A DNA stretch of 62,810 nt, counting the filler, from Kipferlia bialata (lineage: Eukaryota), in the NCBI GenBank assembly GCA_003568945.1. It is 8 parts of 7 records of this genome, joined end to end, with 100 filler letters (N's around TTAATTAATTAA, not from the genome) between each part and the next. Parts side by side here need not be neighbours in the genome. Positions count along the whole stretch, not along the records: positions 1 to 12,256 come from BDIP01001111.1; positions 12,357 to 18,346 come from BDIP01001112.1; positions 18,447 to 23,539 come from BDIP01001112.1; positions 23,640 to 30,284 come from BDIP01001113.1; positions 30,385 to 42,620 come from BDIP01001114.1; positions 42,721 to 54,932 come from BDIP01001115.1; positions 55,033 to 60,196 come from BDIP01001117.1; positions 60,297 to 62,810 come from BDIP01001176.1. One strand, given 5' to 3'. The position numbers and the translations under genes were made by a program. Shown in pieces: positions 62 through 62,735 of the stretch. The notes beneath the pieces were generated by a model. It saw only the letters and a list, made by a program, of their open reading frames with translations, had not been told where the DNA came from and searched no databases. How positions within the stretch are numbered: the stretch's first letter is position 1; each line of letters begins with the position of its first letter.

Positions 62-64
<3 letters not shown>

Positions 65-3000
65 AACCAAGGCCAATGGTGGAGGCTACCAGCACCATGC
101 AGTGGGCGGTCCTAGTTATTAATACATATCTCTCTACACATACTGGGAGAGAGAGAGAGAGAGAGAAGGAGGGAGGGCAGGAGAGAAAGGCAACAAGCAC
201 CATGCAGTGGGCAGTCCTAGATGTGAGTATACACTTTCGCTACTTAATTGATTTTGTCATGGTATATGTGTATACAAATAGAAAATATACAACAACTCCA
301 CGTACCTCAGGCTGCTGGTTGGGGAGTCTGAGATGCCCAGGGTGCCCTGGGGGGGTAAGACAGGATGATATAAGGATGGTATACGACTGAAATAGTATAT
401 TAGAAAATGTATTAGAGTTATTACAACCGAATGTTAGATGCCCAGGGTGCCCTGGGGGTTAGGTATCTAGATGGGGATATAACGTGTATTGAATATAGAG
501 AGGTCAGACAGGATAGGAACAGATACCTCTATACAATACTATACCGGAATATGATATATAGAGATAGAATTGAGTATATACCCATATATACAGAGACACA
601 TACCAGGTTGGTAGTGAGTCTAGACCCCACCACCATGACCAGGGGCAGTGCCCATAGTATCGACATGACCTTTAGTATATACACCTATATATATGCATTA
701 TATAAGTACTCACCAGGTTGGTAGTGAGCCGTGATCCAACCACCATCACAAGTGGCAGTGCCCAGAGCAGATGGAGCATCCTCTCGTGCATGCAGGCAGC
801 AATGGTGCCATAGACAACGGCAAGGCAGCCATAGCTAGTGTAAATAGAGTGTATACATGTATATAGTACATATATATGTATATATGTATATGTATGATTA
901 TGTATATATATAATGCAGGAAGCCATAGACAACGGCAAGGCAGCCATAGCTAGTGTAAAGAGGGTTAAGTGTGAAGGGGACATATGTAGCGAAGGTAGAT
1001 GCCCATGGCTAAACAATTATATTCATTCACTCACCCTGATGCCATTGGGGCCGAGTAGTAATCATTGAATATAATATTGTATATACACATACTATATACA
1101 TGTACTATATACTATTGTATACACATATGTGTATACATACCCTGATGCCATTGGGGCCGAGTAGTAATCATTGAGTATAATATTGTATATACACATACTA
1201 TATACATGTACTATATACTATTATATACACATATGTGTATACATACCCTGATGCCATTGGGGCCGAGTAGTTGAATGCCACGCCAAAGAAGGTGGACCTG
1301 GGGGTAAGGGGTCTAGAGGGAGAGAGAGAGAGAGAGGGAGAGAGAGAGAGAGGCCACGCCAAAGAAGGTGGACCTGGGGGTAAGAGGATAAGGGGGTAAG
1401 AGGATAAGGGGGTAGGGTAGATCACTATAATGATATGTATGGTCATAATATTTGTAGTATATACACAGAGAGTGTATACAAATCTAATAAACACCTGTAG
1501 AGTGGGAAGAGCAGGTCACTGATAGCGTTGAATGCAATGATGACAACTGGGCCAAGGAGTGCCAGCCATGTCCAGAGGTATATATATATATATATATATT
1601 ATAATATACTATAAATATTGAAATTTACCTGTAAAGGGGGAACAACAGGTCACTGACGGCGTTAAAGAGGATAATGACTACTGGCCCTAGGAGTGCCAGC
1701 CATGTCCAGAGGTGTGACTCAAAGGGGGACATGGTGGAGAGGGACATCTGCTCGTCGGTGTGTACCAGCCAGCCGAAGGAGTAGCTAGGGTTAGCATAGT
1801 GAATATATAAATATGTATATATACATATATATATATATAGAGAGAGAGAGAGATATAGAGAACAAAGTCCACATACTTGGCAAGAGTTGTATACAGCATG
1901 CCAGGGCCCCCCTCTCTCTATATATATACAGTAAATATACTGTATATTAATTCCGATATGACTTACTTGGCAAGTGCCCATATATATAGTGAGATACATA
2001 TATATACATATGCGTACTTAGCGAGTGCCCCCACAGCCATGGCCAGGTTGCCCAGCATGCCAGCCAGTGCATTATATATACATGCATATAGAACTAAGAG
2101 ACTATATAGTATATATATACATACTTGGCCAGTGCCCCCACGGCCATGGCCAGGTTGCCCAGCATATCCATAATATATCAATATATATATATATATATAT
2201 ATATATTGAGAGACAATACATGTGCGTACTTGGCCAGTGCCCCCACGGCCATGGCCAGGTTGCCCAGCATGCCAGCCAGGGCCCCTCTCTCTCTGGGCTG
2301 GCCAGCAATGGTGTAGGCATAGGCCATCATGATGACCTGGAGTAAGGTATAGTTGGGGAGACTAACACACACACACACAGAGAGAGAGAGAGAAAGAGAG
2401 ATATGGTGTAGCCATAGGCCATCATGATAACCTATGGTATGAGTATACAACGCGAGATAATGGGATACACTTCACATGGGACGAAAAACAGCTACCTTTG
2501 TGACTAGTACATGCCCTAGCATCATGGCCACTGTGATGCCCCACAGGCATAAATACATATATCATATATATATATATATATACAGTGTGTGTATAATATA
2601 TATAGATAGATAGATTGATACCTTTGTGACAAGCACATGCCCTAGCATCATGGCCACTGTGATGCCCCACAGGGGTAGGTCATCCTCCGACTCCTCACCA
2701 TGCACAGGCATCAGGAGGGACAGCAGGGAGCCTGGGGCATTAGGACATATATGAACGAAATAGGAATATATATTTACATGAGAGTATCTATATCAGTAGT
2801 CGCCATGCACAGGCATCAGGAGGGACATGAGGGAGCCTAAGGAGTAAGTGAAGACAGTATATAAATGTAGAATTTGCACCATATATATGCATCAGGAGGG
2901 ATAGGAGGGAGCCTAGGGGGTAAGGAAATACATGGACGAAAGAAGTATATATATACATATGTATAGATGTATGTATAGATGTAGTCTCCATGCACAGGCA

Positions 3001-4030
3001 TCAATCGATATATATACATATATACTATATTACACACAGTACCTACTACACCACCAACCACCAGTCCGACCAGGTAGAGCTGCCTCTCCAGCACAGTCTC
3101 TATCAGACACCACACACAGCCCAGGGAGAAGCGGGACCTGGGAGTAAGTTTGTTGATATAGACACTTCTTACAGAGTATATAGGTGTATACACAAATACA
3201 CATACACAACACCCAAGGAATAACCGAGCCTTAAAAGTGAGATCCTGCAAATGTGTACAGTTATTCTTATCAGAGAGTGAATACAGAGAACAATGTTGTC
3301 AACATACAGTATAGAAATACCTCTCTCCACCTGGACGTATTCTACCGAATATCATATTGGACAGAGTGTATATATATACCTCTCTCCGTCCTGTGAGTAT
3401 GGGTCCTATATATGGACTACATTATATAATAGAGTCTATATTACACTATATGGTATGATTGTATACACAATGGATTGTACATATATCCCTACCTCCCCCC
3501 CGCCCTGTGCGTAAGGGTCCTTGTTCACTATATACATATATATATATATATATACTGTCTAGTCTTGTCATTCTATTTGTATACTATATAGATTCACTCG
3601 TGTATATACCTCTCCCCGCCCTGTGCGTATGGGTCCTTGTTCTTGGCCCTGGGGCATGCATCGGGGGTCCTGCTGACATACCTATGGTTAGAATAGAAAG
3701 GAATACATGGTATATAAAAAAATAGTATATATATGTATCATCAGTAATAAGGTACATATTGGGGCATGCATCAGGGGTCCTGCTGACATACCTATTATTA
3801 ACACAGCACTATATATACAATACATGCATTAAGTATCAAACAAAATCATTACATTGACATAATCAATATAGAAGAACACTGCTCATAGAGATGCAGTGCA
3901 GGTTAGGTGCATAGATATGTAGTATACATAGGTATGTGATACCTCCTGTGGATGCGTCTGCCTGTGAAGGTCTTGGCAATGTGGGCAGAGCTGGGAGTTA
4001 ATCATTGTTACTCAATGGAATGGCACACAC

Positions 4031-4078
<48 letters not shown>

Positions 4079-40247: not shown

Positions 40248-42218
40248 ATCTATGTATATATACAATTATACACATTCAATTATGTATTATTGTGTATGTA
40301 TACTTCACCATGTATTGCCTATTGCAGTTTGTACTGCATCTAATCCTTTCTAGTTTATGAGTATTTGTATTGTGACTATTTAGCAGCTAACATCCATATA
40401 GTCTCACCACTCTAGATATATCTCATTTCCAATGATTGTTTAGAGTGTTTTAGCAGTATTTTAGCGGTTCTTTAGCAGCTAAGACCCAGGTAGATGCCGA
40501 GGCGAGGAGGCCTCATACGCTGATGCAAAGGTTAGGGACAAATATTCTATTATATCATCAAATATAGTTATCCATATGTGTATCTGTATGTGTATATTTA
40601 CAATTCCTTTGGAGATTATTAGTGAGGCCTCATACGCTGATGCAATAGTAGACATTCTCCTGTATATACATGAATATGTGCTATAATATCAATACTAAGC
40701 ACTCTATAGTGTTGTTATGAGTAGTATGATACTAAGTAGTAGAAGAATAGTCTGCATATAGTATATGATGTAGTTAAATATATTGAATATCTTACATTAG
40801 GCCGTCGTTGGTTCTCTGTTGAAGCTCCTGTTTTGAAGTAGCACTCTATATATTCATTATTATTCATATTAGCTTAGTATACTATATTGAATATCTTATA
40901 TCAGGCCGTCGTTGGTGCGTTACTTAAGCTCCTGCCTAGAAGCAGCACCTTGCACTCTGCGGCAGTGACAGCTACAAAGACTGGCAAGAAGTACATATAC
41001 TACTGTATATGTGTGTGTATACACTTTTGAGAATGACTATGTGTTTATGACACTCTACACTCTGCGGCAGTGACAGCAACAAAGAGTGGTATAAAGTACG
41101 AATAGTGTAAGATAGTACTGATATTGAATGATTATACATACATGTAGTATATACTATATAGTAGTAGCACTCTACACTCTGCGGCAGTGACAGCTGCAAA
41201 GACTGGCAAGAAGTGAGTGTTCTGTACACTCTCTATGTATACATATTCACTAATCTATTATGCGACACACCTCAATATACTATGTACTGTGTAGGTAGTT
41301 GAGTGGCTATAGACATCTTATAATATACATAGACAAGACATCTTATAATATACATGGACAAGAATGAATATTGTAACTAATCCAACCCCGAAGGGCAGAG
41401 CTGGTCTTGAGAGTATTATGTATATATATATATATATATCAATAGTATTCTTATGATTTCTTCATATATACATTGTAACTAGCCTAACTCGCATTTCGTA
41501 TCTATAAGCTAACTCGCTATACACAAAGGCAGAGCTGGGTTGAGGGTGCCCTTCAGGCCATGAAGTGTATATACTAATATTTTCGTTGTATTATATAACT
41601 TGTATATAGCTAATCATGTCGTTTGTAGAATTGACAATTAGGCCCAAGGGAAGGGCAGGCTTAGAAGGTGCCCTCCAGGCTGTCAAGACAGCCAGTAAGA
41701 AGCAACCGGTAGACAGGTACTATACTATCACAGAAGTGTATATAGAACACTTTGATTAGACCAAGACAGCCAGTAAGAAGCAACCGGTAGACAGGTACTA
41801 TACTGTAGTAGAAGGATATATAGGACACTTTAATTAGACCAAGACAGGTAATTTGATAGGATTGGAGTATGTATACTCCATGCATTTATGTATGTAGATA
41901 TACACTATATGCTAAAAGCAGCGGTGGACAGGTATTTATAGTTATATCATCTGACTATACTATACTCTACTATAGTAGATATCTATACCCATAGGTATAC
42001 ATGATAGTTTCGGCCGCGTTATCAGAGGCAGGCTGCCCTTAGTTTGGTGTGAGTATCCCCTATGTATACTATACATACGGGTATATATAGATAAAACATA
42101 TATAAATATGTCTAATAGAATATATCTAAAGGTACACCTGTTCTAATTCTAGACAGGCTGCCCTCAGGTTGATCTCTGGCGTGGTTGGGCAGGACAAGGC
42201 AGAGAAGACATTAGACAG
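30781..42218 (+). CDS. Hypothetical protein in >20 small exons (35-90 nt); partial at both ends
   Basis: Chain of GT-AG exons, e.g. TSEFLAQSKRLTY|GPPNRLSVHVELPTARPPGVTRDAAGYR|FLCRMERQGLRLAAEE|ACRRRHTPLVTPKPCAIHF|...|DAFLLIVCLAMASAGTEHPISLLIASPEP|...|QAALRLISGVVGQDKAEKTLDR. No family recognised; one or two junctions near 39-41 kb are not phase-resolved. Confidence 0.7.
31113..32101 (+). repeat. Representative exon-echo array: acceptor-side partial copies, full exon 31739-31820, two donor-side partial copies
   Basis: Copies start at 31113 (decayed), 31199, 31379, 31482 and 31598; donor-side copies at ~31919-31967 and ~32053-32101; spacers are (CT)n/(TA)n/(GA)n-rich. Confidence 0.95.
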
Positions 42219-42331
42219 GTGATTATATATACTATATATACACACACATATATATATATAGAGAGGGAGAGAGAGGGTGTGGTTGGGCAGGACAAGGCAG
42301 AGAAGACATTGGATAGGTATTGAATATATAC

Positions 42332-42362
<31 letters not shown>

Positions 42363-42439
42363 TGAGAGAGAGGTGTGGTTGGACAGGACAAGGCAGAGAA
42401 GACATTGGATAGGTATATATACCCATCTATATATATATG

Positions 42440-42474
<35 letters not shown>

Positions 42475-42569
42475 GTTGTGGTTGGGCAGGACAAGGCCGA
42501 GAAGACATTGGATAGGTATAGTATATATACTATAGGTTATACATATGAATATATATATATTTATTTATT

Positions 42570-42620
<51 letters not shown>

Positions 42621-42786: not shown

Positions 42787-45700
42787 TAAGCTGATCCCTG
42801 GCAGCCCCCTCAGACTGATAGGTGCTAGGGCCAAGCCACCCAGATCGGGACCATCTCTCTCATACTCAGTGTGTGAGATGAAGGTATGGTATAAATATTC
42901 TCTCCCTCTTACTTTGCATACTGTCAGTGTGTTCCAGTCTTACCTCAGGGCTATGGCAACACCCTGTGCTCGAGTGAGTATGACGGCATGGCCCTACCCA
43001 CCGTGGAGGAGGGGGAGGGAAAGAGGGAGAGAGAGAGGGAGAGGGAGAGGTCCAAGTCTAAGAAGAGGAAGGGACACAGCAGGAGTAGCAGCAGAACTGG
43101 CCACAGGGACAGGGACAGAGACAGAGAGAGGGAGAGAGAGCCAGAGGAGGAGAGTACTAAGAGCCAGGACCCCCTGACATCTAGGCCTGGCCGCATGGTC
43201 TACCCCCAGTCCACTCACTCCCACTCCTCCCATCACAAGAGGCACGGTCGCTCCCACTCCCACGCCCCCCCTCCCTCCCCCCCCATCTTCACCCCTGGCC
43301 TTGGTCTAGTCCCCCCCTTTGTGGGTGTGTCCCCCCAGGGCAGGGTGTGTGGGGTAGGGGCAGTGGTGGGGCAGGGCATGGCGGGGGTGGAGTGGCAGGG
43401 GGTGGGGTCTGCCTTGCTACCTCTGGACACAGACACCCTCAGCCCCACCTACACTGCCTCTGTCAGTAGTATCAGAGTGGCATACCCAGAGGAGACATCC
43501 ATGCAGAGTGTCAGGGACACACTCATAGCCAATGCTAGGTGGGTGCATGTAGTGATTGTATAATGACCCATGCATACATACTCTTTGGATACTTACCCCA
43601 GAGCAGCCATTGGCCAGCCCCGCGCCCGGCTGAACTGCACCATCAATGACATGTGGGTGAGGGTGGGTGTGCACAATGGCCTGGGGTGGGTGGGGACACC
43701 TGTGGCAGTGCCCATGAGGAGGGAGAAGGACAGAGACAGGGAGAGGGGCAGAGGGAGAGACAGGGAGAAAGAGGGTCTCTGCCTGGTGCCCGACACCAAG
43801 GTATTGCTAGTATATACATCTTTGAGTCACTCCCCCCCCCCTCACCCCCTAGGAGATTGACAGGCTGAGGGATGCAGCAGGTGTTGACATTGCTGATGAC
43901 CTCGCAGTACTCATGGGGGTGCCATGTGCTCCAGGTATGGGTATATATATATATATATACATAACATTTTGAGGATTATATATATTGTGTTATGGGGGTG
44001 CCATGTGCCCCAGGTATGGGTATATATATATATATATATATAGTATTTTTAGGATTATATATATTGTGTTATGGGGGTGCCATGTGCTCCAGGTATCGGT
44101 GTTTATGATTATATATATATATATTTATAACAATTTACTTCATCTCTCCCCTCACCCCCCAGGTGTGTGCATCCTGGCCGATGTCTGTGTCTCTGCCGGT
44201 GTGGTTGGGCCCAGTGATGTGGTGCTGTCTGAAGACGTGCCTGTCTCTCTAGGATGGTGTGCACTGCCTGTCACAGCTCAGCAGCCACAGCAGCACCAGA
44301 TACCAAGGTGGGTGTGTATGTATATTACGGATCCTTACATAGTGTTGATACTCTCTCTCTCCCTCTCACCCCCAGAGACACCCACTCAGACGATGAAGGA
44401 AGTGACAGCTACAGGGATAGCGACAGAGACAGAGACAGAGACCGTCCCCCCTCTGGCCCTGCCGCCACCCCCTACCCCCTTGACTCCTTCTGCTGTAGAC
44501 TCACCACATCCGGTGTCCCAGCCCCCTTTGGTCTCAGGCCTCTGACTGTGCCCCTGGATCAGGAGGCAGAGGAGGACATGGACAGGACATCAAGAAGTAG
44601 GCCCGGCAGCAGGTGTGGGGAGTTGTTACATGTACATACAGTCTGTAACTACATAACACAACTGTCTCTAACTCAACCCTTAGGGCTGACCATGGCCGGC
44701 CGTCCAGTAGGACCAGAGGCAGGAGGGACAGGGACAGGGACAGTGAGGAGGGGGCAGACTCGGACCGAGAGGGAGAGGAGTCCAGTGACACCCCCCCCTC
44801 TGCACTGCCCAGTAGTGTAGAGTATGCAGTGCCTAGGCTGACTGTGTCTGTGGCATATGCCAGGACTGAGGCAGCTGAGGCTGTGCCCCTGCCAGACCCT
44901 GAGGGCAGTGCATCCCTCGCAGACTCAGGTGGGCAGTGGATGTGGAAGCATGTCATTCGAGTATTCATATTAGTGCCACTACTCCCTCACACCCAGGCCA
45001 CTCCGAGAGATCCTCTGATGATGGAAAGGGAGAGGACAGAGACAGAGACAGAGAGAGAGACAGGGATGGGAAGAGGGAGAGAGACAGGGATAGAGACAGA
45101 GACAGAGAGAGAGAGAGGTCCAGTAGCAAGGGCCGTTCCAGGTCTAGACGCCACAGCAGAAGAGGCAGCACTATCCCTGAGGAAGATGATGGAGAGAGAG
45201 AGAGGGATAGAGAGAGAGAGAGGCAGAAGGAAAGGGAGAGAGAGGAGACTCTCGAGCGGGAGAGAGACCTCGAGGAGAAGAGGGAGAGGGAGAGGGAGAG
45301 GGAGAGGGAGGACTCCAAGCGCCACAGGCACAGACACAGGCACAGAGACTCTGAGCCTCCCTCCCCCGACTCCAAGGAGACCACCCCCGACGGGGTAGAG
45401 CCCCCCTCGCACCTGTCTGCCCCGTCCTCACCCCCTGTCAGTGACAGTGGCCTAGGGTACAGCCCAGTCACAGTCATGGCACAGTTCGATGTGCAGGGAG
45501 GGGAGGGAGAGGGAGAGTCCAAGGAGAAGGAGACACCCTTTGAGCCATCGGCTGAACTGGCACCGCAGCAGAAGGGAGGGAGGGCCCCCCACGAGGCATC
45601 CTCCCCCCTGCCCCCCTCTGTGCCGCATAGGCAGAGTGGCCTGCCCACCCCTGCCCCTCTTGATCATCTGGTGTCAGTGCCCCTAGCCCACAGACACATA

Positions 45701-47383
45701 CCCACCCCCGGTGACCAGAGGCCCCCCATGCCGCACTCTCTCTCCTCTGCTCCCACACCCAGCCAGGGACAGGGGGAGGGGGAGAGAGAGAACTGGCTGG
45801 CACTGAGGGTGGACACCGACACTCTGATATCCCCCCACCTCAGATGCAGACTGGTAGTGACAGGTGATGGGGCAGAGGGAGTGTCCTTCAGCAAGGTGAT
45901 ACTGTCTGTGGAGGAGGGGCCTGGGGAGTCGATGCTGCTCCCGTTCCCACCCTCCCTTCTACACACTGTACACGACGCCACTCTCTATATCGAGGACACC
46001 ACCCTTGGCATGCCCTGTACACTGTGTAGGGGCACAGTGCAGTCCCTGGCCTCACCAGCTGCCACCATAGTCTGCCACTCTGTCTATGCCAGTGCCGATG
46101 CATACCTCACAGCTAGCAGCACCCTGCAGACTGTGGATAGCAGAAGGAGTGTCAGTGTGAGTCTGGAGCTGGTGGCCCTGCCCCTCACTGGCCCCTCCCC
46201 CCTCCCACCCCCCATCAACGGAGGCCACCTTCTAGCCACCCCCCCTACCCCTACCCTAGATGCCTTGAGTGCATACTTAGGCCTAGTGAGAGAGGGCAGA
46301 GAGGCCATGCAGACCCAGGGGGAGAGGAGCTACACGGACACCGTGGCGGCATACAGACAGTGCGTGCTGGGGCTGCGGCCTGACCTAGTGGTGGGTGTGC
46401 GGGATGGTGAGACCGTAACCATCCCCCACCACTTTGGGTCATACCCCGCCACCCTGGTGGTACCGTCCCCTGTGCTAGGACTACTTACACACATGGGTGT
46501 CAAGGTTACGCCCTCTCCTGTGCTGGCCACCTCATCTGCCCCCAGTCCCTACATAGACTGCCAGGCCTCAATCACCCTGGCCGAGCCAGAGACACAGCTC
46601 ACACTCAAGTAGGGGGACACTGCATACTGATACACAGTAGGATATATTTCTGTCAAATGTTTATTTTTATACAATCACCTAACCCCTTAGATATGACACC
46701 ACTGTGGGTGTGACCCCCCAGCTAGGCAGTGAGGGCAGTGGGTCTGTGCTCATACCCTTCGGCAAGGGTCTGTGTGTCGAGGTTGTCACCCAGCCACACT
46801 CCTTGTACTTCAGATGCCCAAGCACAGCTACCTGCTCCCTGCTCAGGTGTGTACACATACTACATTTATGACACTAACTTCTAACTACTCTCATACACAA
46901 ATGCCTCACTCCCAGGTATGGGGGTGGTGGTGGCTCCAGGGAGTCCTGGGTCCAGACATCCCCATCCAGCAATGGCCTCAGCAACCCTCTGGGGGATGGC
47001 AGTGCAGGGGTCCAGATGCCCCAGGTACAGATACTATTATTCACAGTCATGCCACCTTTTACCAAGAATCCCTTGGTATTCCTCTCACCCCCCAGGTCTT
47101 TGCCACGTCGTGTGTCCCTGCCCAGGTGGGTGTCACCATGCTCAGAGACATGGCCAGGGTGTCACCATATGTCATCATACTAGATAGTGTATATATACTG
47201 ATACTGATACTGATACCCAGGTGAGTGTCACCATGCTCAGAGACATGGCCACAGCTGGGGTGGGGGCAGGGGCAGGAGGCATGGGGACCAATACCAAGGG
47301 GCAGGACATGCTCGGTACAACACTCGGGAAGGTACATCTATCATATTTTTGAATACCGTAGATTTATTGAGAGATTCACACGA

Positions 47384-47438
<55 letters not shown>

Positions 47439-48697
47439 AATCCCAGGCCAAGGGCACCGCCCTAGAGCTCAGTGTCTCCATGCCCAGGCAGGTGCTGAAC
47501 AGCCTTGACACATCCACAAAGGTATGTAGGAGTGCACAGTTCGTTTCTATCAATTGCCTCCATTTCTCTTCTCACTCAGGGCTGGGCCAGCATTGAGGGC
47601 ATCCAGTACTACGTGACCCCTGGCACCCTGACAGACATTGTGCTGATACCCACACCGGTCGACATCAGGTATGTTTATATATATATATATATACATTCAT
47701 ATTTTTTAGTGTGTGTGAGTGTATGTGTATATGTTTCCATGTATCTATCTATAGCCTTTAGTCCTGTGCATTCACTGACCTTACCCCCAGGGACAGTGTG
47801 ACCAATGCCCTTCTCTCTAGCGTGGTTGTGGTGTTTGTGCACTGCCCGAGTCTGTCTCTCTCCCTGGCTGCTGGGGAGACACTCAGCCTTGGGACACTCT
47901 CCCCACCCACCCCTCTGCCACCCACCCTACCACTATCCAGGTATGTGCACTCTCTCTGTGTATGGCAGTTGACTCCTTATACCCTCCTTGCTACTCCCCT
48001 CACCGTGTAGGTTCAACCTCTCTCCCCCCATCCCTGGTAGCATCACCGACCCCTCCCTGCTATGTCCTGTCAGACCAGGCACATACGCATCGATGCTCAG
48101 ACACATCAGGCAAGGGAATAGTAGTTATAGATACGTACAGTATAGTATTTTGTATAGTGTACTGATACTGGTACGCAAATCCATGCTCAGACACATCAGG
48201 TCAGGGACCAGCATTATATAGTCTGATACACACTCTCACACATACACTCATCTCTCACCCTCAGGGAGGAGGATGGCCGTGTGTACGTGGCTGCATACAA
48301 TGTGGTGCTGGCAGTGTCTGCCCCTAGATCCGTGTCACACAGGTACAGTGTGTTCCATTCTGCGTACGCTTCTCTTCATGAACGTATACCGTTTCTATTC
48401 CAACCCCCCAGATACCCTGTGTCCCTTAAGGCTGGCGTTGCCTCCAAGAAGAAGCTCCCCAAGTTCTCCTTCTCCACCGAGCCCCTCTCCGTTGATGTGT
48501 CCCACCCCGAGCTGCTCTCTGTCTCCTTTGCCCCCGAGCCCTCTGGCGACGGGTCAGGCTGGGTCGCCAAGATCACACTCAACTTCAAGGCACAGACGCT
48601 GCTGAACCTTAAGACGTCCTGCTACCTCTTTGTGAGGGGGCCCAACTACCAAGTGCTCGACTCATACTGTCTGGCTCTCACCTACAAGGCAGCATAA
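42787..48697 (+). CDS. NPHP4: Nephrocystin-4-like ciliary transition-zone protein, 5' partial
   Basis: WVRVGVHNGLGWVGTP matches the NPHP4 RVGVHNGLGFV motif. The C-terminus (SHPELL...ITLNF...YLFVRGPNYQVLDSYCLALTY*) parallels the NPHP4 terminal domain (DHPELL...IGLQF...LIYIND...EAFCVKVIY). Comparison is from memory, not an alignment. Confidence 0.8.
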
Positions 48698-50680: not shown

Positions 50681-53600
50681 TTAGCTCTTGGCCAGCATGT
50701 TGTAGATCATGTCCTGGATGCCCTGCAGATCATCCTGGGGTGAGTAACTCGGTTGGTGACAAGGCTCACTAGATAGTGGAATATATGTGTCTGTACCAAT
50801 GATACTCTCCATACCTGCTTCTCCTTGCCAATTACTGCTTGATATCACTCATACCATCATATCTATACACATATATATATATACAAATCCACCGCACCTG
50901 CTTCTCCTTGTCCTGGTCATCAATTGCTATCCCTCATACAATCATATATATACATGTATATAGTATATAGAAATGATACACTCCATACCTGCTTCTCCTT
51001 GTCCTGATCCATCTCGCCCAGTGTCCTCATGTGCAGCTCTCTCTTTGAGTTGGCTATGGCCACGATGGCCTCATCGACAGTACCCTTGCAGACAAGGCGG
51101 TACACATCTACACTGCGGACCTGGTATTAGTACACCCCAGATACCAATCATTGCATACCGATAGATACTAGAATGCCCAACTGTCATATAGAACAATACA
51201 CACACATCCCCACCTGCCCTATCCTGTGGCACCTGTCCTCTGCCTGGATTGCATTGATACNNNNNNNNNNNNNNNNNNNNNNNNNNNNNNNNNNNNNNNN
51301 NNNNNNNNNNNNNNNNNNNNNNNNNNNNNNNNNNNNNNNNNNNNNNNNNTATATACATATATCCCCACCTGCCCTATCCTGTGGCACCTGTCCTCTGCCT
51401 GGATGTCTCCAGTCGGGTTGAAGTCTGGGGTGGGTGTGGGAGAAGACAGTATACATATATGCACACACATATACATTGCACCACACATGTGCCTACCTAC
51501 ATCCAGGAACACTACATAAGGATACTGTATCATATATGCATACCTGCATCCAGGAACAGGACCACACTGGCAGATACCAGGTTGATACCAAGGCCACCTG
51601 CCCTGGGGGGTCAGAGGGAGACGTAGATACATACTACCATTGAGACTTCCGACCACCAATCCAGTGTCACTATCACCCACCTCGTTGTGAGCATCATGAC
51701 TGCAGTGTCGTCATTGTCCTCGGCATTGAAGTCATCCATGATGGTCTGGGGGTTAGAGGTGAAGAGGGATAGGAAAGAGGTACCACAAGGTGTATTAATA
51801 TATATAGGCACTATGATACTGTTGAAGTCGTCCATGATGGTCTGGGGGTTAGTGGATGGGATAGAGTGTAACCAAACACAGACATATATACGTATAGAGA
51901 ATAACACTACGGGAGCACTATAGTCATCCATAATGGTCTGGGGGGTTAGTGTCAGAGTAAAGAAGAGGGACTATATATGCATAATGATACTATGATAGTA
52001 CTGAAGTTATCCATGATGGTCTGGGAGGTGAGGTACTACTATTACAAGTGTCAGGTCTATTAATAACTACACTCATCCGTACCTGTCTCTCCTCCGTTGG
52101 CACTGACCCATCAATCCTGGTGTGTCTGATGCCCTGGTATCAGTCAGTGTCAGATGCTGATATATGTATACACTCATATATACCCATACCTTGTTGTCTA
52201 GAACAGACTCAGCGATGTCAGTATCAGATACTGATACATGTATACATATATATATGCATGTATATACACACCTTGTTGTCCAGGACAGACTCAGCAATGT
52301 CCAGGACAGACGTGAACTGGGAGAAGACTAGCACACGGCGCTTGTCCTTGGGCTGGGGTGAGAGAGATATACTGTATAGTATCCACATGTTGGGCACTAT
52401 ATGTATCAGACTGTCCCCTGTACCTTTCTGGATGTGTACACCCTCTCCACTAGATCCAGCATGGCCTGGTACTTGGCACTGTCGCTGGGGATGAGAGATA
52501 TGTATATTCATACCATAAATTCATACTGCATGTAGATATACAAGCAGTACAAGTATGAAAACATCTTGGCCTGGTACTTGGCACTGTCGCTGGGGGTGAG
52601 GAAGGGGTATCTTACATCAGATGGGTGTACGATCAGAGAAGCCACAGCTTGATTCAACAAGTCCCGACCTGACAGACAGCCTGTCCCCCAGGGCCAGGTG
52701 GGATATGCACCCATTCAGCATGTCGGCCTGGGGTTAGGATAGGATTCACCCACTATACACTCAATACTAGAATGTGGCATATATACAATATACATGCACG
52801 TACCTGACACATTGCACTGATCTCGTGGTCTGACATGGCCATCACAGTCTCCAGGACTAGGTCTCTGGGCAGAGTGACCAGGGGGTCAGGGGGGAGGGCA
52901 CGGGCTACAAACCTAGGGGGTGAGGGACAGTAACCGAAACCAATGTATATATGTGATACCAACACTATACCTGAACGGCCCGACTCCCGTGTCGTTGCTC
53001 TTCTTCTGTCTGACCCCCTCAGCATATGCCTCATAGGGTGTCAGCACCTTCTGCTTGAGGTGGCCTGGACATCAGTGTATGTATAGAGAAGTTGTAGTAG
53101 TACTAGAAGAGTACACTGATACCTAGGTAGAACCCTGCCAGGATGTATGAGATGTCCCCTGACATCTTGCGTCTCTTCCTCTTCTTGCTCCTGACACTCC
53201 CATCGTCTGGGACATAGGCACTCTCAATCAGGGTGTCCACAATCTGCTCACACCTGGCGTCAGTGCATAGGATATGCTGCACTACTGTATATGATATATA
53301 GACATATGTATATGCTGCACCCACCTCTCCCTGGTGTATCTGATCCTGAAGAGGTGGGGGTGGTTACTGGCCTTCCTGAGGGACATGAACACATTGTTGA
53401 ACAGCCTCATGCCAACTGCCTTGCCAGTCAGGTCCTTGTGCTGGTTGATCCTGAGGTCAGGGGGGGAGGGGGTATATGGTGAATAATACAAATATGCAAA
53501 GTGGACCCTGGTAATATACATACATATCCATACAAACATACCTAGCTGCGAACTCCTGCATGGCGGATGTCTTGTCAGAGGCAGGGGTGAGGGAGGTAGA

Positions 53601-54722
53601 GACAGGTGCAGCAGGGGCAGCATCGATGTCTATGCACTCCTCCCCCTTGACCTCTCCCTCCTTGCCCTCAGTCTCAGTGTCGATGTCTACAGCTGAGGCC
53701 TCGTCCCCAAAGGACAGAACCTCATCCACAGGCTGGGGTCAGAGGGGGTCACATATACACGTGCCACTCAATGGAACGACAATAGCATAATAATAGTAGT
53801 AGTAGAATGCACCCACCTCCTCCTTAGTCTGTGCCTCTGCCTTGGCCTCCAGGATAGAGGGCCTAGGCTTGGCATCTAGGGAAGATGGGATAGGGCTCTC
53901 TGTGTCTCTGTCCTCCTTAGTCTCTCCCTCTCCCTCTGCACCTGTCTCTGTCTTGGGTTCATCATCCTGCCCATCGCCCTGGGGGTTAGTGGAGGTAGAA
54001 GTGTATATAATCAAATCAATATCAATACTTCATACCTTGCCCTGGTATATCTGGAGGAACTTCTTGGACATTGTGACAACCTCCTGGTACACCTGGGGGT
54101 AGGTAGGGAGGGGGGTGAAGGTGAACCATGATATAATTAATAGGAATCCATACGATCTTATCACATACCTGCCTCTGGTATGGCCCCATGTCCACCACAA
54201 TCTCATGCAGCCTCTTGACAGGCATCTGGTCGAACACGTCCATCTTCTTGCGCCTGGCATTAGTCACGTAGAGGGTGTATAGGGAGTGTACAGATGATAT
54301 AAGCAGTGTATATATATGTCACACATACCTCAGGATGAATGGGTGGATCAGAGACCTCACACGCTCCAGGAGCTCAGCATCCCTGGGGTGAGAGACATGA
54401 CGTCAATGATAATGACACAATCAGCGCCAGTAACACATGTCACCCCACCTAGCGTCTGTCTTGTTGGACTTCCTGGACCTCTTCTCAAACTCACTGATGA
54501 AGGTGGACGTCTTGCCACTGTTCTTGAAGATGGAGGGGAGCACAAAGTTGAACACCTGGGGGTGAGGGGTACAGTTTCATACATACTGTGTCTATATATA
54601 TACTAGACATGGTATAGGGATGTGTGAAACGTACTGTGAATAGCTCTGTGAGGTTGTTCTGGACTGGGGTACCGGACAGCAGTAGACGGGAGACAGCACG
54701 GTACTGAGAGATGGAACGGAAC
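50681..54722 (-). CDS. SMARCAD1: SNF2-family chromatin remodeller, SMARCAD1/Fun30/Etl1 type; 5' partial
   Basis: RLLLSGTPVQNNLTEL, PFILRRKK, MSLRKASNHPHLFRIRY, MSDHEISAMC, RVLVFSQFTSVLDI, RIDGSVP, LTTRAGGLGINL, DFNPTGDIQAEDRCHRIGQ, VYRLVCKGTVDE; stop TAA at 50683-50681. SNF2 call is firm; the subfamily rests on the QAEDRCHR and MSDxE motifs. Confidence 0.85.
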
Positions 54723-55085: not shown

Positions 55086-56886
55086 CTGTTAAAGAACCGA
55101 CCCGATGCCACCCTCGACACGAGTACATTGGCTGCAATGGTCTCCACAGCAAACTTGGTGGCCAGGAAGAGTGTGACGCACTGGTATAAGACAGAGTCGA
55201 TACTCCACGGTGGACTACGCAGATAATGTAGTTATGAACATGACCCATACCTGCTTTCCGCTGAGGAGAAGGCTGAAGATAAGGACGAGGAAGGTTGCCA
55301 CGAGCATAAAGCCTGGCATTAGGAGAGTGCATGTAGTACGTACAGTGGATGAGTACATATCATATACATAAACAGAACTATATCACCAAATACCGCACCT
55401 CCCTCCTTGGCGACCACCACCATGTACACGGCAGGGGGCAGGTAGCATGCTGGGGTGAGAGCAGACAAGAACGAATGTGCTGAGATTGTTGCCAGTATAT
55501 GTGTGTGTATAATACGCTGTCTGAGTGTGTATGTATATATACCCGTACCTGTGGCCAGAATGAAGTTGTGCATGGCTATGTATGAGGGCAGGCCGAAGAG
55601 GGAGACCGAGTTCTCCAGCAGCTGCAGCAGACCAGACCCCTAGGGGTGAGAGGCAGATTCCGAGGGGGGGGGGTAGGGGTGGGAGTCTCGCGCCATCAGA
55701 CCACACAGTCCCATACAAACACGTACATACATATACACCTACTCACCCATGCTAGCTCCATGAACACTGCCATATCATCGTGGGTCATGCCGTTGTCGTA
55801 CCCATGGGCCACCACCTTTCCAATCACAAGGATGAACAGCCCGCTCACTGGGGTCACGGGGGGGGGGGGGGGATAGTATTGCAATATATACGAGGCCGGC
55901 ATACTAATTCAGCAATTCATGAATGAATATATACACATAGATATCAACGACGCGTCATTATGTATACGACACGTACCTACAGTGATAAGGTGGTGAGGAA
56001 GAGCCATCAGCCAAGAGACATAGGTGCCTAGCTTGCCTATTTCCTGGGTAAGGGGAAGACCACCACTACTATTAAGTGACTCAGAGCAACAACCCTACAG
56101 AGTTGATACAACTAGACACACAAAACCTTGAATGCGCTGCGTCCCACACAGGCCTCCCCAGACAGTGTGCTCCGAAGCATTGCATATGTGGCAGTATGGC
56201 ACCGGTAGTGCAAGAAGAGGTACCCGCAAAGGCGATACTACGGTGAGTGAATGAGTGAATGAGATGCAATACTGCCAGGAAGCTCTACACACTATATATA
56301 TACACGTACGATGACTAGGATCAATATACAGCCTGGGACAGCGACAAGTGCCTGGACCAGGACGGGATGGTCGAAGATGGGGGCGAAGACAGGGTCGGCC
56401 CTAATGCTGGTGGGTAAGTGTATGGTCCATAGTTGAGACTACAGCAATATCCCATCAAATGGACATCTGACTTCTGATATGGATACCCACCTAGCAAGGT
56501 AGACCCCTAGGAAGTGCATGGCAACACAGGTGACAGCCACCTGGGCAACCCCCAGCACGACAACGAGGGAGTGGTGCCGCTGACGTCAGATGAAGGTGCA
56601 GGTGTTGCATGTTAACACATATACAAAAGTATGGATCATGCCACAATGGTGAATAGGGAGGAGTCACATAGAGAAGGGCCATTTCATCATAGAGTATAGG
56701 GATACCCGGTACCTCCATCTTGTTCATATTCCCAAAGGACACAAAGAGATTGGATCTGAACTCCTTGTTATAGACCAGCTGCGGATGAGACACAGGAGGG
56801 AGGATATATCACAGATGTCTGCGAGTACCTATGAAAGAGGAAGGGCGGGCATAAGATAGCCATCGAACCCAGGTGGGCTGATACTG

Positions 56887-56917
<31 letters not shown>

Positions 56918-59900
56918 TATATACCTGCACAATCTGCCAGATGGCTAGGAAGAGGTTACGTGCCGAAGACACGCTGCCCTTAGGCCTGTGGGAGTGGACA
57001 TCTCCTCCGTCCACGGTCATCCTGAGGGTAAGGGAGGGGGGGAAGTCCAACAATGTCGTATATCAGCGGCCTATACCCCACCTGAACTGCTCCCCCATCC
57101 GGTGGAGGGGGCTGCCCTCAGGGGCCAGGGCGTGCAGGGCCCTGAGGTCGGCCAGCAGCACTGCGTCCACTGATGCTACAGACTGGGCCACGTCGCCGGC
57201 CTCCTTGCTGACACTGCCCTGTGGGCCGGGGATCACAGACAACTCACGGGTCTGGCCATCCTTCCGCCGTCTCCGCCGTCTACGGGCCTTGGTGGGTTCG
57301 GTAGTGGTGGTCTCGGGGTCGTGTCTGACGGGCGTGTCACCATCAGCACCTGACCCAAGGGCAGTGCGTGGTGAGGGACAGTCCCTCTGCCCACTGCCAC
57401 CCTCCCCCTCTGAGTCACACCCTCTGGGAGGGGAGGGGGCACCTGGGGCGGCATGGTCCCCTAGCCTCAGGCCATCGGTGTTGATGGATCCCCCGGGTCC
57501 CCCAGGCGTGGACTTGGTCCTGTGTGTGAGACAACGATGCAGAGACGGCCTATACAGAGAGGCACACACCACATACCGGACTGGGACGAGACTGGCCATG
57601 GATATGTGCTTCAGAGACCCCAGCGGCAGACGGGGGGGCGCCACTGTCCCCTCCTCAGTTACATCAATATCTATATCTCCCACACTAGCCACGGGGGACA
57701 GAATGCGGTGGGCATTGGCCTTCCTAGGGGTGGGTGTATTGAGAGAGAACGTGAATGGATAGACTGTATCAAGGCACCTCATTGCCACCAGGGCAGGCCG
57801 TGAGTTGGTGCCCGTCTCGGTGTCTGTGTCGCTGTAGTACTGACCATACAGGCCTAGAGCCGACCCAGACGACTGACAGTGAGACTGGGCAGACAGAGTA
57901 AGTATACAACGTTACGGGAGTGTACGCCACTCCCAATATACTACCTCCATATGCGAAATCCACCATGTCACCCACCTGTGATATCATGCCGAGATAGGCT
58001 GAATGACTGGCAGAGATGGTGGTGGATGAGTAGACATCGGTGGAGTCCTGGTATGTATAGAAGCCAGGCTGCCATCCGTAGGCCTCACTGCCTGTCCTGA
58101 CAGTCAGTATCACAGTCAGTGTCAGTATCAGTGTCAGTGTCAGTATCAAAACACAAATACATGTCGATTGTGGGTGGGTGTGTGTACTCGTGCCTCGCTA
58201 CAGGAAACAGACTAGAGGGCATCTGGTCAGCGCTCTTGAGGCGCTGGAAAGTCAACTCCCTGGGGTAAGGTGGCACATTGACAGAGAACAGGCACACACA
58301 GACACTGACCTATCACTGGTCTCCGATGTGTACGAGTACTCCTCAGACGACTGGCCCCCGTCCAGCATGGCGTGGTAGTCGGTGCCGCCTAGGGTGCCAG
58401 GGCCAAAGGACGAGTTCCTAGGGACAATGGCTATGTTGCCCACATAGCGGGACTGAGAAATGGCAGCCATGCTATTGCCATGGTACATCACCCCACCCAT
58501 CCCACCCACACCCGGATAGGACCCTTCCTGGTCATAAGAGTATAAATACATAAGTGGAGGGATAGTGGTACAAGTAGAGTAAGACAGAGAACGACGCGGG
58601 CTCAGAAAGCACCTTCTTGTTGTCTGGGCAAGAGTGGGACCTGTTCACTATGCACAGAGCCTCATTCACGTCCATCTGGGTCAGTCGGTCAGGGATAGGG
58701 GTAGGGGCTATATATACATATCTATATATACACCTCGGCACTGAGGGCAGCTGCGAATGCTGCCACGTCATAGGTGAGTCTTCTCCCCGGGGCCTCAGAC
58801 TCATTGGGAGGGTCCAGGCCTGGTCATCAGAACAGGCACCAAGTCACGCAGACACATAAGACAGACACGGGTATCCATACCTTCGCAGTCTTTCTCCCGC
58901 TGGGGCTGGGGAGCCACATATGCCTTATCCACATGGTAGAGAGGGGACTGCTCCTGAGAGAGCGGTGTGTGGAAGGTCAGGGAGCCGCTAGAGGGCACGA
59001 GGGGACTGGGGTCGGGCAGGTGGGGGAGGTCCTCCTCTGGTGTGGACACTGGGGTGCCTGCCAGAGGGGTGAGGCGGGGGGAGGTGAGGGGAGTGAGGCG
59101 GGGGGTGGTGATTGGGGAGGCCGCAGATGGCTCTGGGGTGCAGGGCAGGGAGCTGTCGTTGTCGTCGTTGGGAGTGCTGTTCATACTGTCTGACTCCTCA
59201 CTCCCATCCGGATCTGAGTCGGTGGGATGCCTGGACTCCTGTCAGTCAGTGCCAAGGGTCAAGGGTCAAGGGTCAAGAGTCAATACACCCTAGCAATAGA
59301 GACTCCAGGGTGCATTAGATACCTGAATCCAAGGGGAAGATGTGGCATTGCGGACTGTCTGGAAGGACTCCTGGGTGAGTAGGGAAGGTAGACGGGATCA
59401 CGGAACAGACCCACCTTTCTGTCGTGTGTCTTCTGCACAGCCTCTCTGTCTATGAACTGAGAGGCCCTGGCTATGGACGTGGCCCTGGATATGGTGCTCA
59501 GGCCTCTCTCAGGTGGGGACAGGGCTGGGCTTGGGGTCAGAGGGATCAAGCATATGGAAGACAGGGACAAATAGAAGCGAGACTACCATACGTCAATCTC
59601 CACCAACATACCCAGATGTCGAGTTGATAATGTGGCTGGGGGTCTGGATGTGGGCCTTGTCAAATCTGGGGTGAGGTTACCAGTGGGCTAGTGTCCCATT
59701 TGAAGAGGAGGAGGCTCAACCACTAGCCCATACCCACCTAGCACTGATGACGTCCCAGGGGTGGTCGACAAGGGCCGTGAACACATCCCCGCTCTGCAGG
59801 TTCCCCTCAGTCTGGGGTGGGAAGGGGGGAAGGGGGGGGGGGTGAAGGTATGACAAGAGATGGTGTATATGGGCATACCTCGCCGTCCATAAAGGCCGTC

Positions 59901-60117
59901 CCCTTCTGGGCGCCCCCTGGGCTCTGGGTGTTGAACAGCTGGGGGTGAGTGGAACTACAGCCACTATTTACGATGAAACAGTATACACTGCTTCCTCTGT
60001 CTATGGTCCTTGGTATGAATCAGATATTGTCAATTCTCCTTATACACACATTCCCACACTCACCCTGTCTATCCAGGATATGTGCTGGTGCGACATGCTA
60101 GAGTGGAAGAGAGTGGC
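55086..60117 (-). CDS. Hypothetical protein with low-complexity N-terminal region and multiple C-terminal transmembrane segments; partial
   Basis: About 20 exons with short introns; hydrophobic exons at 55.1-56.6 kb (SLVVVLGVAQVAVTCVAMHFLGVYLA; SGLFILVIGKVVAHGY; GFMLVATFLVLIFSLLLSG). Confidence 0.55.
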
Positions 60118-60620: not shown

Positions 60621-60654
60621 TAATGGCTATACATATACAAATACATATACTCAC

Positions 60655-62322
60655 TTGATCTGGCCGTTGGGGTACAGGACTCTCACAAGGGGGTACAGGA
60701 CAACAGCACTGAAGGCATACCCTCTGTTGGGGGCCTTTCTCTTGACAGCTGGGGTTAGGGGTTGGGAATGTACATATACACACATATACATATACTGCTG
60801 GTATCAAAGAGCGTGATAGGATGACTCAACCCTAACTATAACAGTCCCAGCGTACATATATGCCTATATACCCAAATATATTGGAGAGTAGTTGAAAGGT
60901 AGCACCATCCAGTCAACGACGTCAGTATAGATAATAGTATATGGACACGTACACACACTAACATGTATACATAAACACACCTGGCTGAATGAGTGCTGGT
61001 CTGAAGAAGTGCACTCTGCCCAGGCCCATGGCCAGTAACCCGGCCTAGGGTGAGTCCTAGGTATTCTATATACAATATAGTGTTATATAATGTACGTATA
61101 TATATTACACTTAGTACTGTCTGTATATATACACACCTCTGCCTCGCCCTTGTCCCTGCCAAAGGCCACGCGAGTCTTCTGGGACTGGGGTGAGAGGGCA
61201 CTTACAGTGGATGGTACACATACTGCTATGTTCTCAAGCATTGATATATCAAACAGTGTACTTCACAGGACACACAGGAGGGGTGCAGATCACACTGAAT
61301 AGTGAATATCATCATCACATACATGTAGAGACTAGTTGGGTCAAGTATACCATCAATATCACCAAATTTAGATATATAGATAATGATCTCAATGGAAAAA
61401 GGCCACTATATCCACTAATCGTATTTCACTACACCCAATGTATGTGTATATATTTGTTTGAATATATACAATGTATGTATCTATACCTGTTCTGCTCCCG
61501 CATATACCTCTACTTTTACACTACAGATAATGATAATTATATGTATGATTATATACATTGTATATATATTAATGCATGATTATATACAATGTATGTATCT
61601 ATACCTGGTCTGCTCCTTCCTATATATATATATGTGTGTGTGTGTATGTATATTACATGTATATTACATACTATGTATACCTGATCTGCTCCTTCCCCAG
61701 ACAGAAGGAGGAAGGCTGCATTGGGGGACAGCTGAGGGTGAGAGAGGGGGAATACATATAGTATACATATACTACACAGTGAATATGTATAGTATGAGTA
61801 TGATAAGAGAGAGGCAGAGAGTAGGATATACGTCCTTCAGTGTCCTGCCAAGGGACCAGTGTAGCCACACTATATATATAAAACTATATCAGATATAGTA
61901 CTATGCTTACGACGTATATACCTCCTTCAGTGCCCGTCCACATGCCAAGGGAACAGTGTAGCCACAATATATGTATCAATATAAGAGAGACATTAATATA
62001 TGGAACTGAGACTTATGTACACGATGTATATACCTCCTTGAGTGCCCTGCCACATGCCAATGGAGCAGAGGCAGTGAGACTATGGTACTGGTCACGGGAC
62101 ACCTTGCCCCTGGGGGGGGAGGGGGCATATTGTATATATATAGCTAGTATATACATTGAGAGAGACATGGACTGGCACACTGAAGTCTAACACAATAGGA
62201 GAGAGAGAGAGACGCACCAGTAGACTCCTAGGCAGAATAGGCACATATCGACACCCACTAGGTGGTCACGGACAGAGGAGTAGTCCTGGGTATCAGAACC
62301 AAAAAAAGGTATATATATATCT

Positions 62323-62354
<32 letters not shown>

Positions 62355-62735
62355 GTGGTCACGGACAGAGGAGTAGTCCTGGGTATTAGATGGTAAAATC
62401 TATCTATCTATACATATATATCTAGAGAGAGAGAGAGAGAAGTGGTTAACACTATAGTCACTGAGAGGGAGTACCTCGAAGTCTGTGTGCATCACCTTGG
62501 AACAGTAGGTAGGGGTATGCTCATCATATACATACACTATCACCATCTACATGAGATACACTAAGCAAACCAGTACCTCGAAGTCCGTGTGTATATATAT
62601 ATATATATTAATATATATATACACTAAGACGCCTGAGGGAGAGACAGACAGAGAGAGAGAGAGAGCTATGCACTCACCTCGAAGTCCGTGTGTATGACCT
62701 CTGTCAGCTTGGGATGGACAACACCAGTAGATCGC
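60655..62735 (-). CDS. Atypical short-chain dehydrogenase/reductase, CC3/TIP30(HTATIP2)-like Rossmann fold; partial
   Basis: Phase-consistent exons RSTGVVHPKLTEVIHTDFE|DYSSVRDHLVGVDMCLFCLGVYW|GKVSRDQYHSLTASAPLACGRALKE|LSPNAAFLLLSGEGADQ|SQKTRVAFGRDKGEAE|AGLLAMGLGRVHFFRPALIQP|AVKRKAPNRGYAFSAVVLYPLVRVLYPNGQI; FCLG, SxxGAD, KGEAE and FRP motifs. Confidence 0.85.

What the first reader, a model, noticed from the sequence alone, without database searches (positions are those of the whole stretch)
62..62735. Polarised 'exon-echo' arrays: introns built from partial copies of the flanking exon ends
Seen: in at least six unrelated genes, many exons are preceded by 1-5 copies of [branch point-AG + first ~15-50 nt of the exon] that break off into (CT)n/(TA)n. 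They are followed by 1-5 copies of [last ~15-85 nt of the exon + GT donor] emerging from microsatellite. The polarity held in nearly every array inspected. Each echo carries only one splice site, so these are not mutually exclusive cassette exons. Inference: collapsing an echo onto its exon by direct-repeat recombination regenerates an intact exon and splice site with a shorter intron. The arrays could be (a) silent cassettes exchanged into exons by recombination or conversion, (b) long pointers for programmed DNA deletion, (c) captured exon ends from divergent alleles, or (d) substrates of non-canonical RNA joining. I know of no described system with this architecture.
Basis: partly seen in the sequence, partly recalled or inferred. 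Interest (0 to 1): 0.95.

Follow-up and report, generated by a model that had tools for sequence, protein, structure and literature searches.

The report
Introns archiving retired exon-end alleles
In this stretch of a free-living protist's genome, half of the short exons sit beside partial copies of their own ends inside the introns, and the copies differ mostly at silent codon positions, so they are likely retired pieces of other working alleles left by out-of-register recombination, which would make one genome a record of hidden sex and extreme diversity.

Summary
The arrays are real. In 11 gene models (proteins labelled Kipferlia bialata), 65 of 131 short exons carry 135 one-splice-site 'echoes'; 133 of 135 obey the polarity, which is simply the geometry of a tandem gain spanning one splice site. 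One unbranched DNA contig spans 183-836 unchanged; a spliced contig uses the complete exons and skips an intact donor echo. The architecture is known: amphioxus 'mirages', human F7 intron 7; this scan saw it before in sea-urchin and other invertebrate DNA. What differs: echo-versus-exon pN/pS is 0.15-0.19, far below the 0.5 floor for a copy neutral since birth; echo splice signals differ from the real ones yet keep consensus; spacers are mostly unalignable; damage rises with distance from the exon (1 of 32 nearest, 12 of 46 farther) while silent divergence stays about 0.23; units are about 107 nt. Best reading (0.6): echoes are ends of formerly working divergent alleles, added by misregistered inter-allelic recombination and now decaying. 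No second haplotype was available to show it. Pointers, constitutive RNA joining, neutral duplication and misassembly fare badly.

The parts
306..12183 (-). Gene A (= P0003, 883 aa hypothetical protein labelled Kipferlia bialata), 34 exons; 46 echoes on 24 exons between 429 and 11848
604..657 (-). Donor echo of exon 834-714: 45 of 54 identical, the 9 differences inside whole codons all synonymous, GT intact; skipped by the spliced X2 contig (joint 345-713)
62..216 (-). Two acceptor echoes (starting at 216 and 111) of an exon that lies beyond the contig end; the X2 contig's loose end differs from the 111 copy at 5 synonymous and 1 conservative site (compared by hand)
1495..1579 (-). Longest echo (85 nt) of exon 1784-1629: 15 differences, only 2 amino-acid changes (L>A, V>I)
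12359..16642 (-). Zinc-type alcohol dehydrogenase superfamily gene (= P0001, PF08240; MECR-like is my recalled label), 8 exons; 19 echoes on 5 exons, 12766-15744
13652..13841 (-). Two donor echoes of exon 14019-13884; the nearer is 46 of 59 identical in DNA but 19 of 20 in protein
16925..18187 (-). ARF-family GTPase gene, 6 exons modelled here; 5 echoes on 4 exons, 17163-17872
   Evidence: (PF00025, weak, E 0.04)
30781..42515 (+). Gene C (own model, 26 exons, no stop); 48 echoes on 20 exons, 31199-42515
43992..44092 (+). Two donor echoes of exon 43853-43934 (gene D)
47126..47220 (+). 95-nt intron that begins with a 30/31 copy of the next exon's head, whose GT serves as donor
48172..48199 (+). 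Donor echo with GT behind exon 48011-48109, whose own modelled donor is GC
50681..54555 (-). SNF2-family helicase gene (= P0005; all 19 modelled exon peptides lie in it); 7 echoes on 5 exons, all at 50898-52589, none on the first 11 exons
55086..59938 (-). Three partial gene models (15 short exons) with no echo: internal negative control
60655..62735 (-). Gene H (own model, 7 exons); 6 echoes on 4 exons, 61605-62594

Best explanation
The echoes are partial exon copies with one splice site each, and they are likely the ends of formerly working, strongly divergent alleles that out-of-register recombination between haplotypes placed next to the exon and that now decay as silent intron DNA. Shown: real tandem units of about 107 nt; polarity; purifying-selection signature on codons and on splice signals; damage rising with distance from the exon; the main transcript at one locus ignores an intact echo. 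Inferred steps: (1) an array is seeded once by a break repaired with overshoot synthesis across one splice site and joined at a microsatellite microhomology; copies spanning both sites duplicate an exon and are purged; (2) because introns of different haplotypes cannot be aligned, short exons and echoes are the only homology, so an allele's exon end often pairs with an echo, and exchange inserts a fresh, hitherto functional end beside the exon, keeps the old inner breakpoint and pushes older units outward (the reciprocal product collapses units or puts echo sequence into the exon); (3) the spliceosome tolerates this by taking the first GT and the last AG around a complete exon.
For: Mismatches by codon position 82/39/296 of 1455 codons; pS 0.26, pN 0.039, ratio 0.15-0.19, p 1e-23 to 1e-33 against a ratio of 0.5; 0.14-0.18 in the 72 echoes of the three database-matched genes; 0.125-0.157 with one echo per array. 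The 0.5 floor is my inference: in a clonal line only one of two copies can be the working exon at a time. Echo-private changes 62 synonymous, 47 not, ratio 0.28. Synonymous differences are symmetric (GC>AT 106, AT>GC 99) while non-synonymous ones lean to AT in the echo (72 vs 33). Echo splice signals differ from the real ones at 4.2 of 10 acceptor and 1.9 of 4 donor positions yet score near real and above all 2000 random-mutation trials. Nearest unit pN 0.021, damaged 1 of 32; farther units pN 0.063-0.075, damaged 12 of 46; p 2e-6 for non-synonymous, 0.66 for synonymous. Echo-echo pS 0.244 equals echo-exon pS: star-like, as for draws from an allele pool. 22 of 32 multi-unit arrays share an inner breakpoint; the splice-side half has fewer non-synonymous (p 0.01) and more synonymous (p 0.03) differences than the inner half. 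CT follows head breaks 12:1 over GA, GA precedes tail starts 9:0. DNA contig intact and spliced contig canonical. Metamonads lack NHEJ and fornicates lack Rad51A, keeping two Dmc1 paralogues (PMC8516963, section read); human minisatellites mutate by inter-allelic transfer (PMC2599865, passages).
Against: No second haplotype was seen: X1 gave one unbranched contig over 183-836 and X2 one transcript, and genes A and SNF2 had a single database hit each, so the donor alleles are inferred only. The model needs silent-site diversity near 0.2-0.25 and introns diverging faster still: only 17 of 132 echo flanks resemble the real intron above the 95th background percentile, even 25 of 30 echoes with no third-position change do not, and flank likeness does not rise with exon likeness. 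It does not explain the narrow unit size (CV 0.22, none under 68 nt) or why spacers (median 75, 42-127 nt) match echo-free introns (median 76). The inner-half excess may be alignment overrun. RNA evidence is one gene, contigs only, which drop rare forms. Models C, D, E, H, ARF and G are mine and not RNA-checked.
Confidence: 0.6

Rival explanations
1. Echoes are under selection now because they are used: a minority of transcripts or genomes joins the exon core to an echo through the shared sequence (non-canonical RNA joining, or regulated DNA exchange from silent cassettes).
For: Would give the low pN/pS, kept splice signals and best-preserved nearest units without needing extreme allelic diversity; spacer length equals intron length.
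Against: The spliced contig skips an intact echo with 9 silent differences; no DNA joint. Canonical use of echo sites gives a stop or frameshift in 116 of 126 cases and exons with echoes are not enriched for recursive AG|GT sites. 21 of 135 echoes carry a stop, gap or dead site. Targets are housekeeping genes with no sign of diversifying change.
Confidence: 0.12
2. Ordinary mirage minisatellites: sister-chromatid tandem duplications, neutral from birth, homogenised within the allele.
For: Same architecture as amphioxus mirages; 23 of 135 echoes are identical to the exon in whole codons; a few units keep their intron part (4 of 132 with flank score >=20).
Against: Predicts pN/pS of 0.5 or more; nearest units alone give 0.13 (p 5e-20). 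Predicts random decay of splice signals and one-way mutation bias at silent sites; neither seen.
Confidence: 0.08
3. Whole exon-plus-intron duplicates worked for a long time as mutually exclusive exons, then one copy lost its far half.
For: Explains selection on both copies and a spacer of intron length.
Against: No complete duplicate with both sites among 135 hits although that stage would have to be the longest; no remnant acceptor before 78 downstream echoes; shared sharp breakpoints.
Confidence: 0.07
4. The new copy is made by highly mutagenic repair synthesis and becomes the working exon end; selection keeps only events without harmful changes.
For: Needs no second allele; repair synthesis is mutagenic in yeast (PMC10592705, search listing only).
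Against: At 0.23 changes per site almost every event would be lethal; silent changes are as frequent on echo as on exon lineages (62 echo-private, 22 exon-private over 32 arrays); diverged splice signals keep consensus in both.
Confidence: 0.05
5. Donors were homeologues or close paralogues (ancient hybrid or duplicated genome) rather than segregating alleles.
For: A second, diverged copy of the dehydrogenase gene exists (P0002, 93% over the query exon) and shares one residue with an echo.
Against: Up to 4-5 mutually divergent versions per exon end with continuous, overdispersed distances; single hits for genes A and SNF2.
Confidence: 0.06
6. Assembly artefact: haplotypes concatenated through microsatellites.
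For: Short-read assembly, microsatellite-rich; X1 may be the same sample; only 654 bases were checked.
Against: Separately assembled unbranched contig with 0 differences and two-fold depth on a two-copy repeat; 94% of sampled words of 1-10000 are in X1; echoes begin inside exon sequence where no shared long word exists.
Confidence: 0.02

Closest known systems
Amphioxus 'mirages' (Adh3, globins BflGb6/BflGb9, PGBD5; Ebner 2010 PMC3087553, section read; PMC3902484, passage; Canestro 2002 not held)
   Same: Tandem units spanning one exon-intron boundary, 5' or 3'; many keep AG/GT; normal splicing undisturbed.
   Different: There a few loci, units 10-160 bp, whole units 81-100% alike and homogenised within an allele. 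Here a protist, half of all short exons in the window, unit about 107 nt, unalignable spacers, codon- and splice-level purifying signature and an age gradient; the passages read report none of these.
Human F7 intron 7 37-bp VNTR (PMC1557585, abstract)
   Same: First unit spans the exon-intron border; downstream pseudo-donors stay silent, the most upstream donor is used.
   Different: One locus, identical pseudo-sites, donors only; here also intact branch-point-AG decoys upstream of the used acceptor.
Inter-allelic mutation of human GC-rich minisatellites (MS32, CEB1; via PMC2599865, passages)
   Same: Proposed mechanism: misregistered strand invasion between alleles, activity at one end of the array.
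   Different: Units there are non-coding; here they are coding exon ends, so selection history can be read from them. Inter-allelic transfer is inferred here, not observed.
Intron gain by tandem genomic duplication (Rogers model; PMC3443670, passages)
   Same: Local duplication creating repeated splice signals; one candidate at 47126-47220.
   Different: The other echoes lengthen existing introns rather than create new ones.
Silent-cassette gene conversion (vlsE, VSG, pilin; recalled) and ciliate pointers (recalled)
   Same: Partial silent copies beside an expressed sequence; direct repeats whose collapse restores a gene.
   Different: Housekeeping genes, synonymous excess, a complete exon always present, no rearranged DNA seen.

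Membership tests
Mirage minisatellites | Tandem units spanning one exon-intron boundary, either end | tested here: met
   133 of 135 echoes polarised, 57 upstream and 78 downstream
Mirage minisatellites | Many but not all units keep AG/GT | tested here: met
   48 of 52 and 70 of 74
Mirage minisatellites | Regular splicing undisturbed | tested here: met
   one gene, two joints, contigs only
Mirage minisatellites | Unit number varies between haplotypes or cells | not testable with these tools
   no second haplotype, no long reads
Mirage minisatellites | Whole units homogenised within an allele (described property) | tested here: not met
   17 of 132 flanks above background; echo-echo pS 0.244
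Mutually exclusive tandem exons | Each copy has both splice sites | tested here: not met
   0 of 78 acceptor-like, 2 of 57 donor-like
Ciliate pointer/IES systems | Gene is incomplete until repeats are joined | tested here: not met
   complete exons give stop-free models and database proteins
Ciliate pointer/IES systems | Rearranged DNA form exists | tested here: inconclusive
   no DNA joint in 849 bases, but contigs drop rare forms
Silent-cassette antigenic variation | Cassettes diversify a surface antigen (amino-acid change favoured) | tested here: not met
   pN/pS 0.15-0.19; dehydrogenase, ARF, SNF2 genes
Inter-allelic minisatellite turnover | Polar gain at one end of the array | tested here: met
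   damage gradient away from the exon
Inter-allelic minisatellite turnover | Units demonstrably transferred from another allele | not testable with these tools
   needs other isolates
Recursive splicing (AG|GT ratchet sites) | Echo-bearing exons start with GT or end with AG more than others | tested here: not met
   10 of 41 vs 13 of 79; 38 of 47 vs 65 of 74

The most novel reading that the evidence does not exclude
The arrays are a working, genome-wide allele archive: echoes are held by present selection because recombination or non-canonical RNA joining regularly swaps them back into the exon, giving every small exon of housekeeping genes its own bank of tested alternative ends.
Probability: 0.12. 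Interest if true: 0.95.

Novelty: new variant of a known kind. Interest (0 to 1): 0.72.

Why it matters
If the best reading holds, one apparently single-haplotype genome stores several past working alleles of each exon end in order of age. That would be sequence evidence of recombination between very divergent haplotypes in a free-living fornicate, a group where sex is an open question, and would allow diversity and selection to be measured from one assembly. It gives a testable mechanism for mirage repeats, whose origin the amphioxus paper calls unclear, and shows intron growth by exon-end capture: units make up 15,235 of 29,932 modelled intron bases. It also shows a reduced spliceosome (87 proteins, no snRNA candidates found; PMC6679479 passages) skipping consensus donor decoys, and by the gene models branch-point-AG decoys too, a natural test set for splice-site choice.

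Tried and rejected
No whole genome is held, so all counts are for this window. No RNA holder was listed on record; X2 is RNA by guess, though its contig shows GT-AG joints absent from X1. Reads could be laid on only the first 849 bases, and 1-182 was skipped by the tool, so lack of cover there means nothing. Metagenome scans for other Kipferlia alleles: 0 of 590 pattern hits for P0003; 10 loci at 34-53% identity for P0001, not alleles, not used. An automatic gene finder picked echoes as exons in echo-rich genes and was replaced by database-guided and hand models. Head/tail breakpoint coincidence: not above chance. Fixed copy-tract ruler: period rises with echo length and spacer is about independent of it, so not supported. 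Recursive splicing: no enrichment. Intron-only local repeats: 6 introns of 123, after masking microsatellites, so weak as a comparison. Paper searches gave no report of mirages in Kipferlia or any protist or of a synonymous bias; the species' genome paper has 0 hits for 'duplicat' and 'alternative' (passages). Canestro 2002 was not held and may hold more. I opened no supplements; Supplementary Data 2 of PMC8516963 bears on which repair genes this species has. Earlier notes by place: none.
Full report
Setting. The window is several contigs joined by N-linker spacers; no whole genome is held. Three exons hit database proteins at 100% identity labelled Kipferlia bialata: a zinc-type dehydrogenase P0001, hypothetical P0003 and a SNF2 helicase P0005. 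Genes have short exons and introns whose branch point lies 7-9 nt before the AG. I used 11 gene models, 134 exons: A and the dehydrogenase mapped from the database proteins, SNF2 by hand with all 19 exon peptides found in P0005, the other eight by hand, free of stops. Genes at 19300-30000 and 49000-50300 were not modelled.

Observation. Local alignment of 131 exons of up to 300 nt to both flanking introns gave 145 hits; 135 at score 28 or more were kept (control rate 0.8% of 2225 pairs). They sit on 65 of 131 exons in 89 arrays of 1-4 units. Upstream hits are heads (53) or inner 5' parts (4), never tails; downstream hits are tails (73) or inner 3' parts (3), with 2 exceptions. AG is kept in 48 of 52, GT in 70 of 74. 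Density is patchy: 20 of 26 exons in gene C, 24 of 34 in A, 0 of 15 in the models at 55086-59938, none on the first 11 SNF2 exons. The polarity is geometric (inference): after any tandem gain spanning one splice site, the copy continuous with the rest of the exon is the exon and the other lies in the intron.

Is it in the DNA and the RNA? Only 849 bases could be laid. One X1 contig covers 183-836 with no difference at depth 380.7, a 38-nt two-copy repeat has depth 762.5, and there is no DNA joint. One 3006-nt X2 contig joins 713 to 345 and 305 onward by GT-AG, skipping the donor echo at 604-657, and its loose ends continue into the complete upstream exon and into an exon beyond the contig end that differs from the echo at 111 by 5 silent and 1 conservative change (by hand). 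Contigs drop rare forms, X2 is RNA by guess, and X1 may be the window's own sample.

The unexpected part. Echoes differ from exons at 82, 39 and 296 of 1455 first, second and third codon positions; pS 0.26, pN 0.039, ratio 0.15 (0.19 with a four-fold transition weight). A copy that is neutral from birth beside a constrained exon cannot fall below about 0.5 (inference); the data reject 0.5 at p 1e-23 or less, also with one echo per array, in the 72 echoes of database-matched genes and in nearest units alone. Changes private to one echo still give 0.28. Silent differences are symmetric in GC, replacement ones lean to AT in the echo. Echo splice signals differ at 4.2 of 10 acceptor and 1.9 of 4 donor positions yet score close to real sites and above every random-mutation trial (a simple mutation model). 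Identity falls from about 0.9 in the exon part to 0.3-0.5 a few bases into the intron, background 0.3; 17 of 132 flanks exceed the 95th background percentile. So each unit looks like a separately evolved working exon end.

Order and decay. In 32 multi-unit arrays the nearest unit has pN 0.021 and 1 of 32 is damaged; farther units have pN 0.063-0.075 and 12 of 46 are damaged; pS stays 0.20-0.26. Echo-echo pS is 0.244. 22 of 32 arrays share an inner breakpoint within 2 nt, and the splice-side half is fresher than the inner half (overrun of the alignment could add to this). Unit period is 107 nt median, IQR 98-120, minimum 68; spacers have the length of ordinary introns, 75 against 76 nt, which I cannot explain. 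CT runs follow head breaks and GA runs precede tail starts, the same signature on opposite strands (units within an array are not independent).

Mechanism. Both lineages must have been constrained while they diverged, so either they lived in different haplotypes or echoes are used today. Use is disfavoured: the transcript skips an intact echo, echo sites give a stop or frameshift in 116 of 126 cases, there is no recursive-splicing enrichment, and 21 of 135 echoes are broken. I therefore favour (0.6) seeding by a microhomology-joined overshoot across one splice site, then growth by out-of-register exchange between divergent alleles in which short exons and echoes are the only alignable DNA. This predicts shared breakpoints, a fresh unit nearest the exon, flat pS, rising pN and unrelated spacers, all seen. 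Loss of NHEJ and Rad51A with two Dmc1 copies in fornicates (PMC8516963, section read) makes homology-led repair plausible; tolerance of mismatches by Dmc1 is recalled, not checked. Against: no second haplotype was seen, the needed diversity is extreme, and most echoes identical at third positions also have unrelated spacers, which requires fast intron turnover or conversion limited to the exon part.

Comparison. The architecture is that of amphioxus mirages (PMC3087553, section read; PMC3902484, passage) and of the F7 intron 7 VNTR (PMC1557585, abstract); earlier notes of this scan report it in sea-urchin and other invertebrate DNA and led me to the term, which search 65 also returned. Those texts describe homogenised units at a few loci and leave the mechanism open. 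Searches found no protist case and no codon test; the original mirage paper was not held. Mutually exclusive exons, ciliate pointers and antigenic cassettes fail defining tests.

Verdict. Observation confirmed; interpretation partly supported; new variant of a known kind; interest 0.72. The bolder reading, a working allele archive, is not excluded by contig-level RNA from one gene: probability 0.12, interest 0.95.

Noticed in passing
47126-47220 (+): Intron that opens with a 30/31 copy of the next exon's head and uses its GT as donor: candidate recent intron gain by tandem duplication of an AG|GT site; no orthologue to test.
   Followed up: partly
7209-7920: About 710-bp insert in an intron of gene A with 51-nt terminal inverted repeats, 98% alike: MITE-like element.
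   Followed up: partly
48110 and 48172-48199 (+): Modelled real donor is GC while its echo has GT; would fit first-donor choice regardless of strength; not RNA-checked.
   Followed up: no
25262-27070 and 27730-29581: Inverted duplicate, 71% identical over 1.9 kb, with weak kelch-motif hits in one arm.
   Followed up: partly
whole window: 6 of 123 modelled acceptors end in AAG or GAG; branch A sits 7-9 nt from the intron end, like the fused branch-point/acceptor of diplomonads.
   Followed up: partly
22958-23099 (-): Two further short donor echoes in a gene that I did not model.
   Followed up: no
54853-54922, 60316-60342, 60578-60622: Short interspersed repeat near contig ends.
   Followed up: no
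43009-45310, 9700-10450: Coding (GA)n microsatellites give long RE/RD repeats in the proteins.
   Followed up: no
P0002: Second, diverged dehydrogenase copy in the same species; shares one residue with the echo at 12766-12802.
   Followed up: partly
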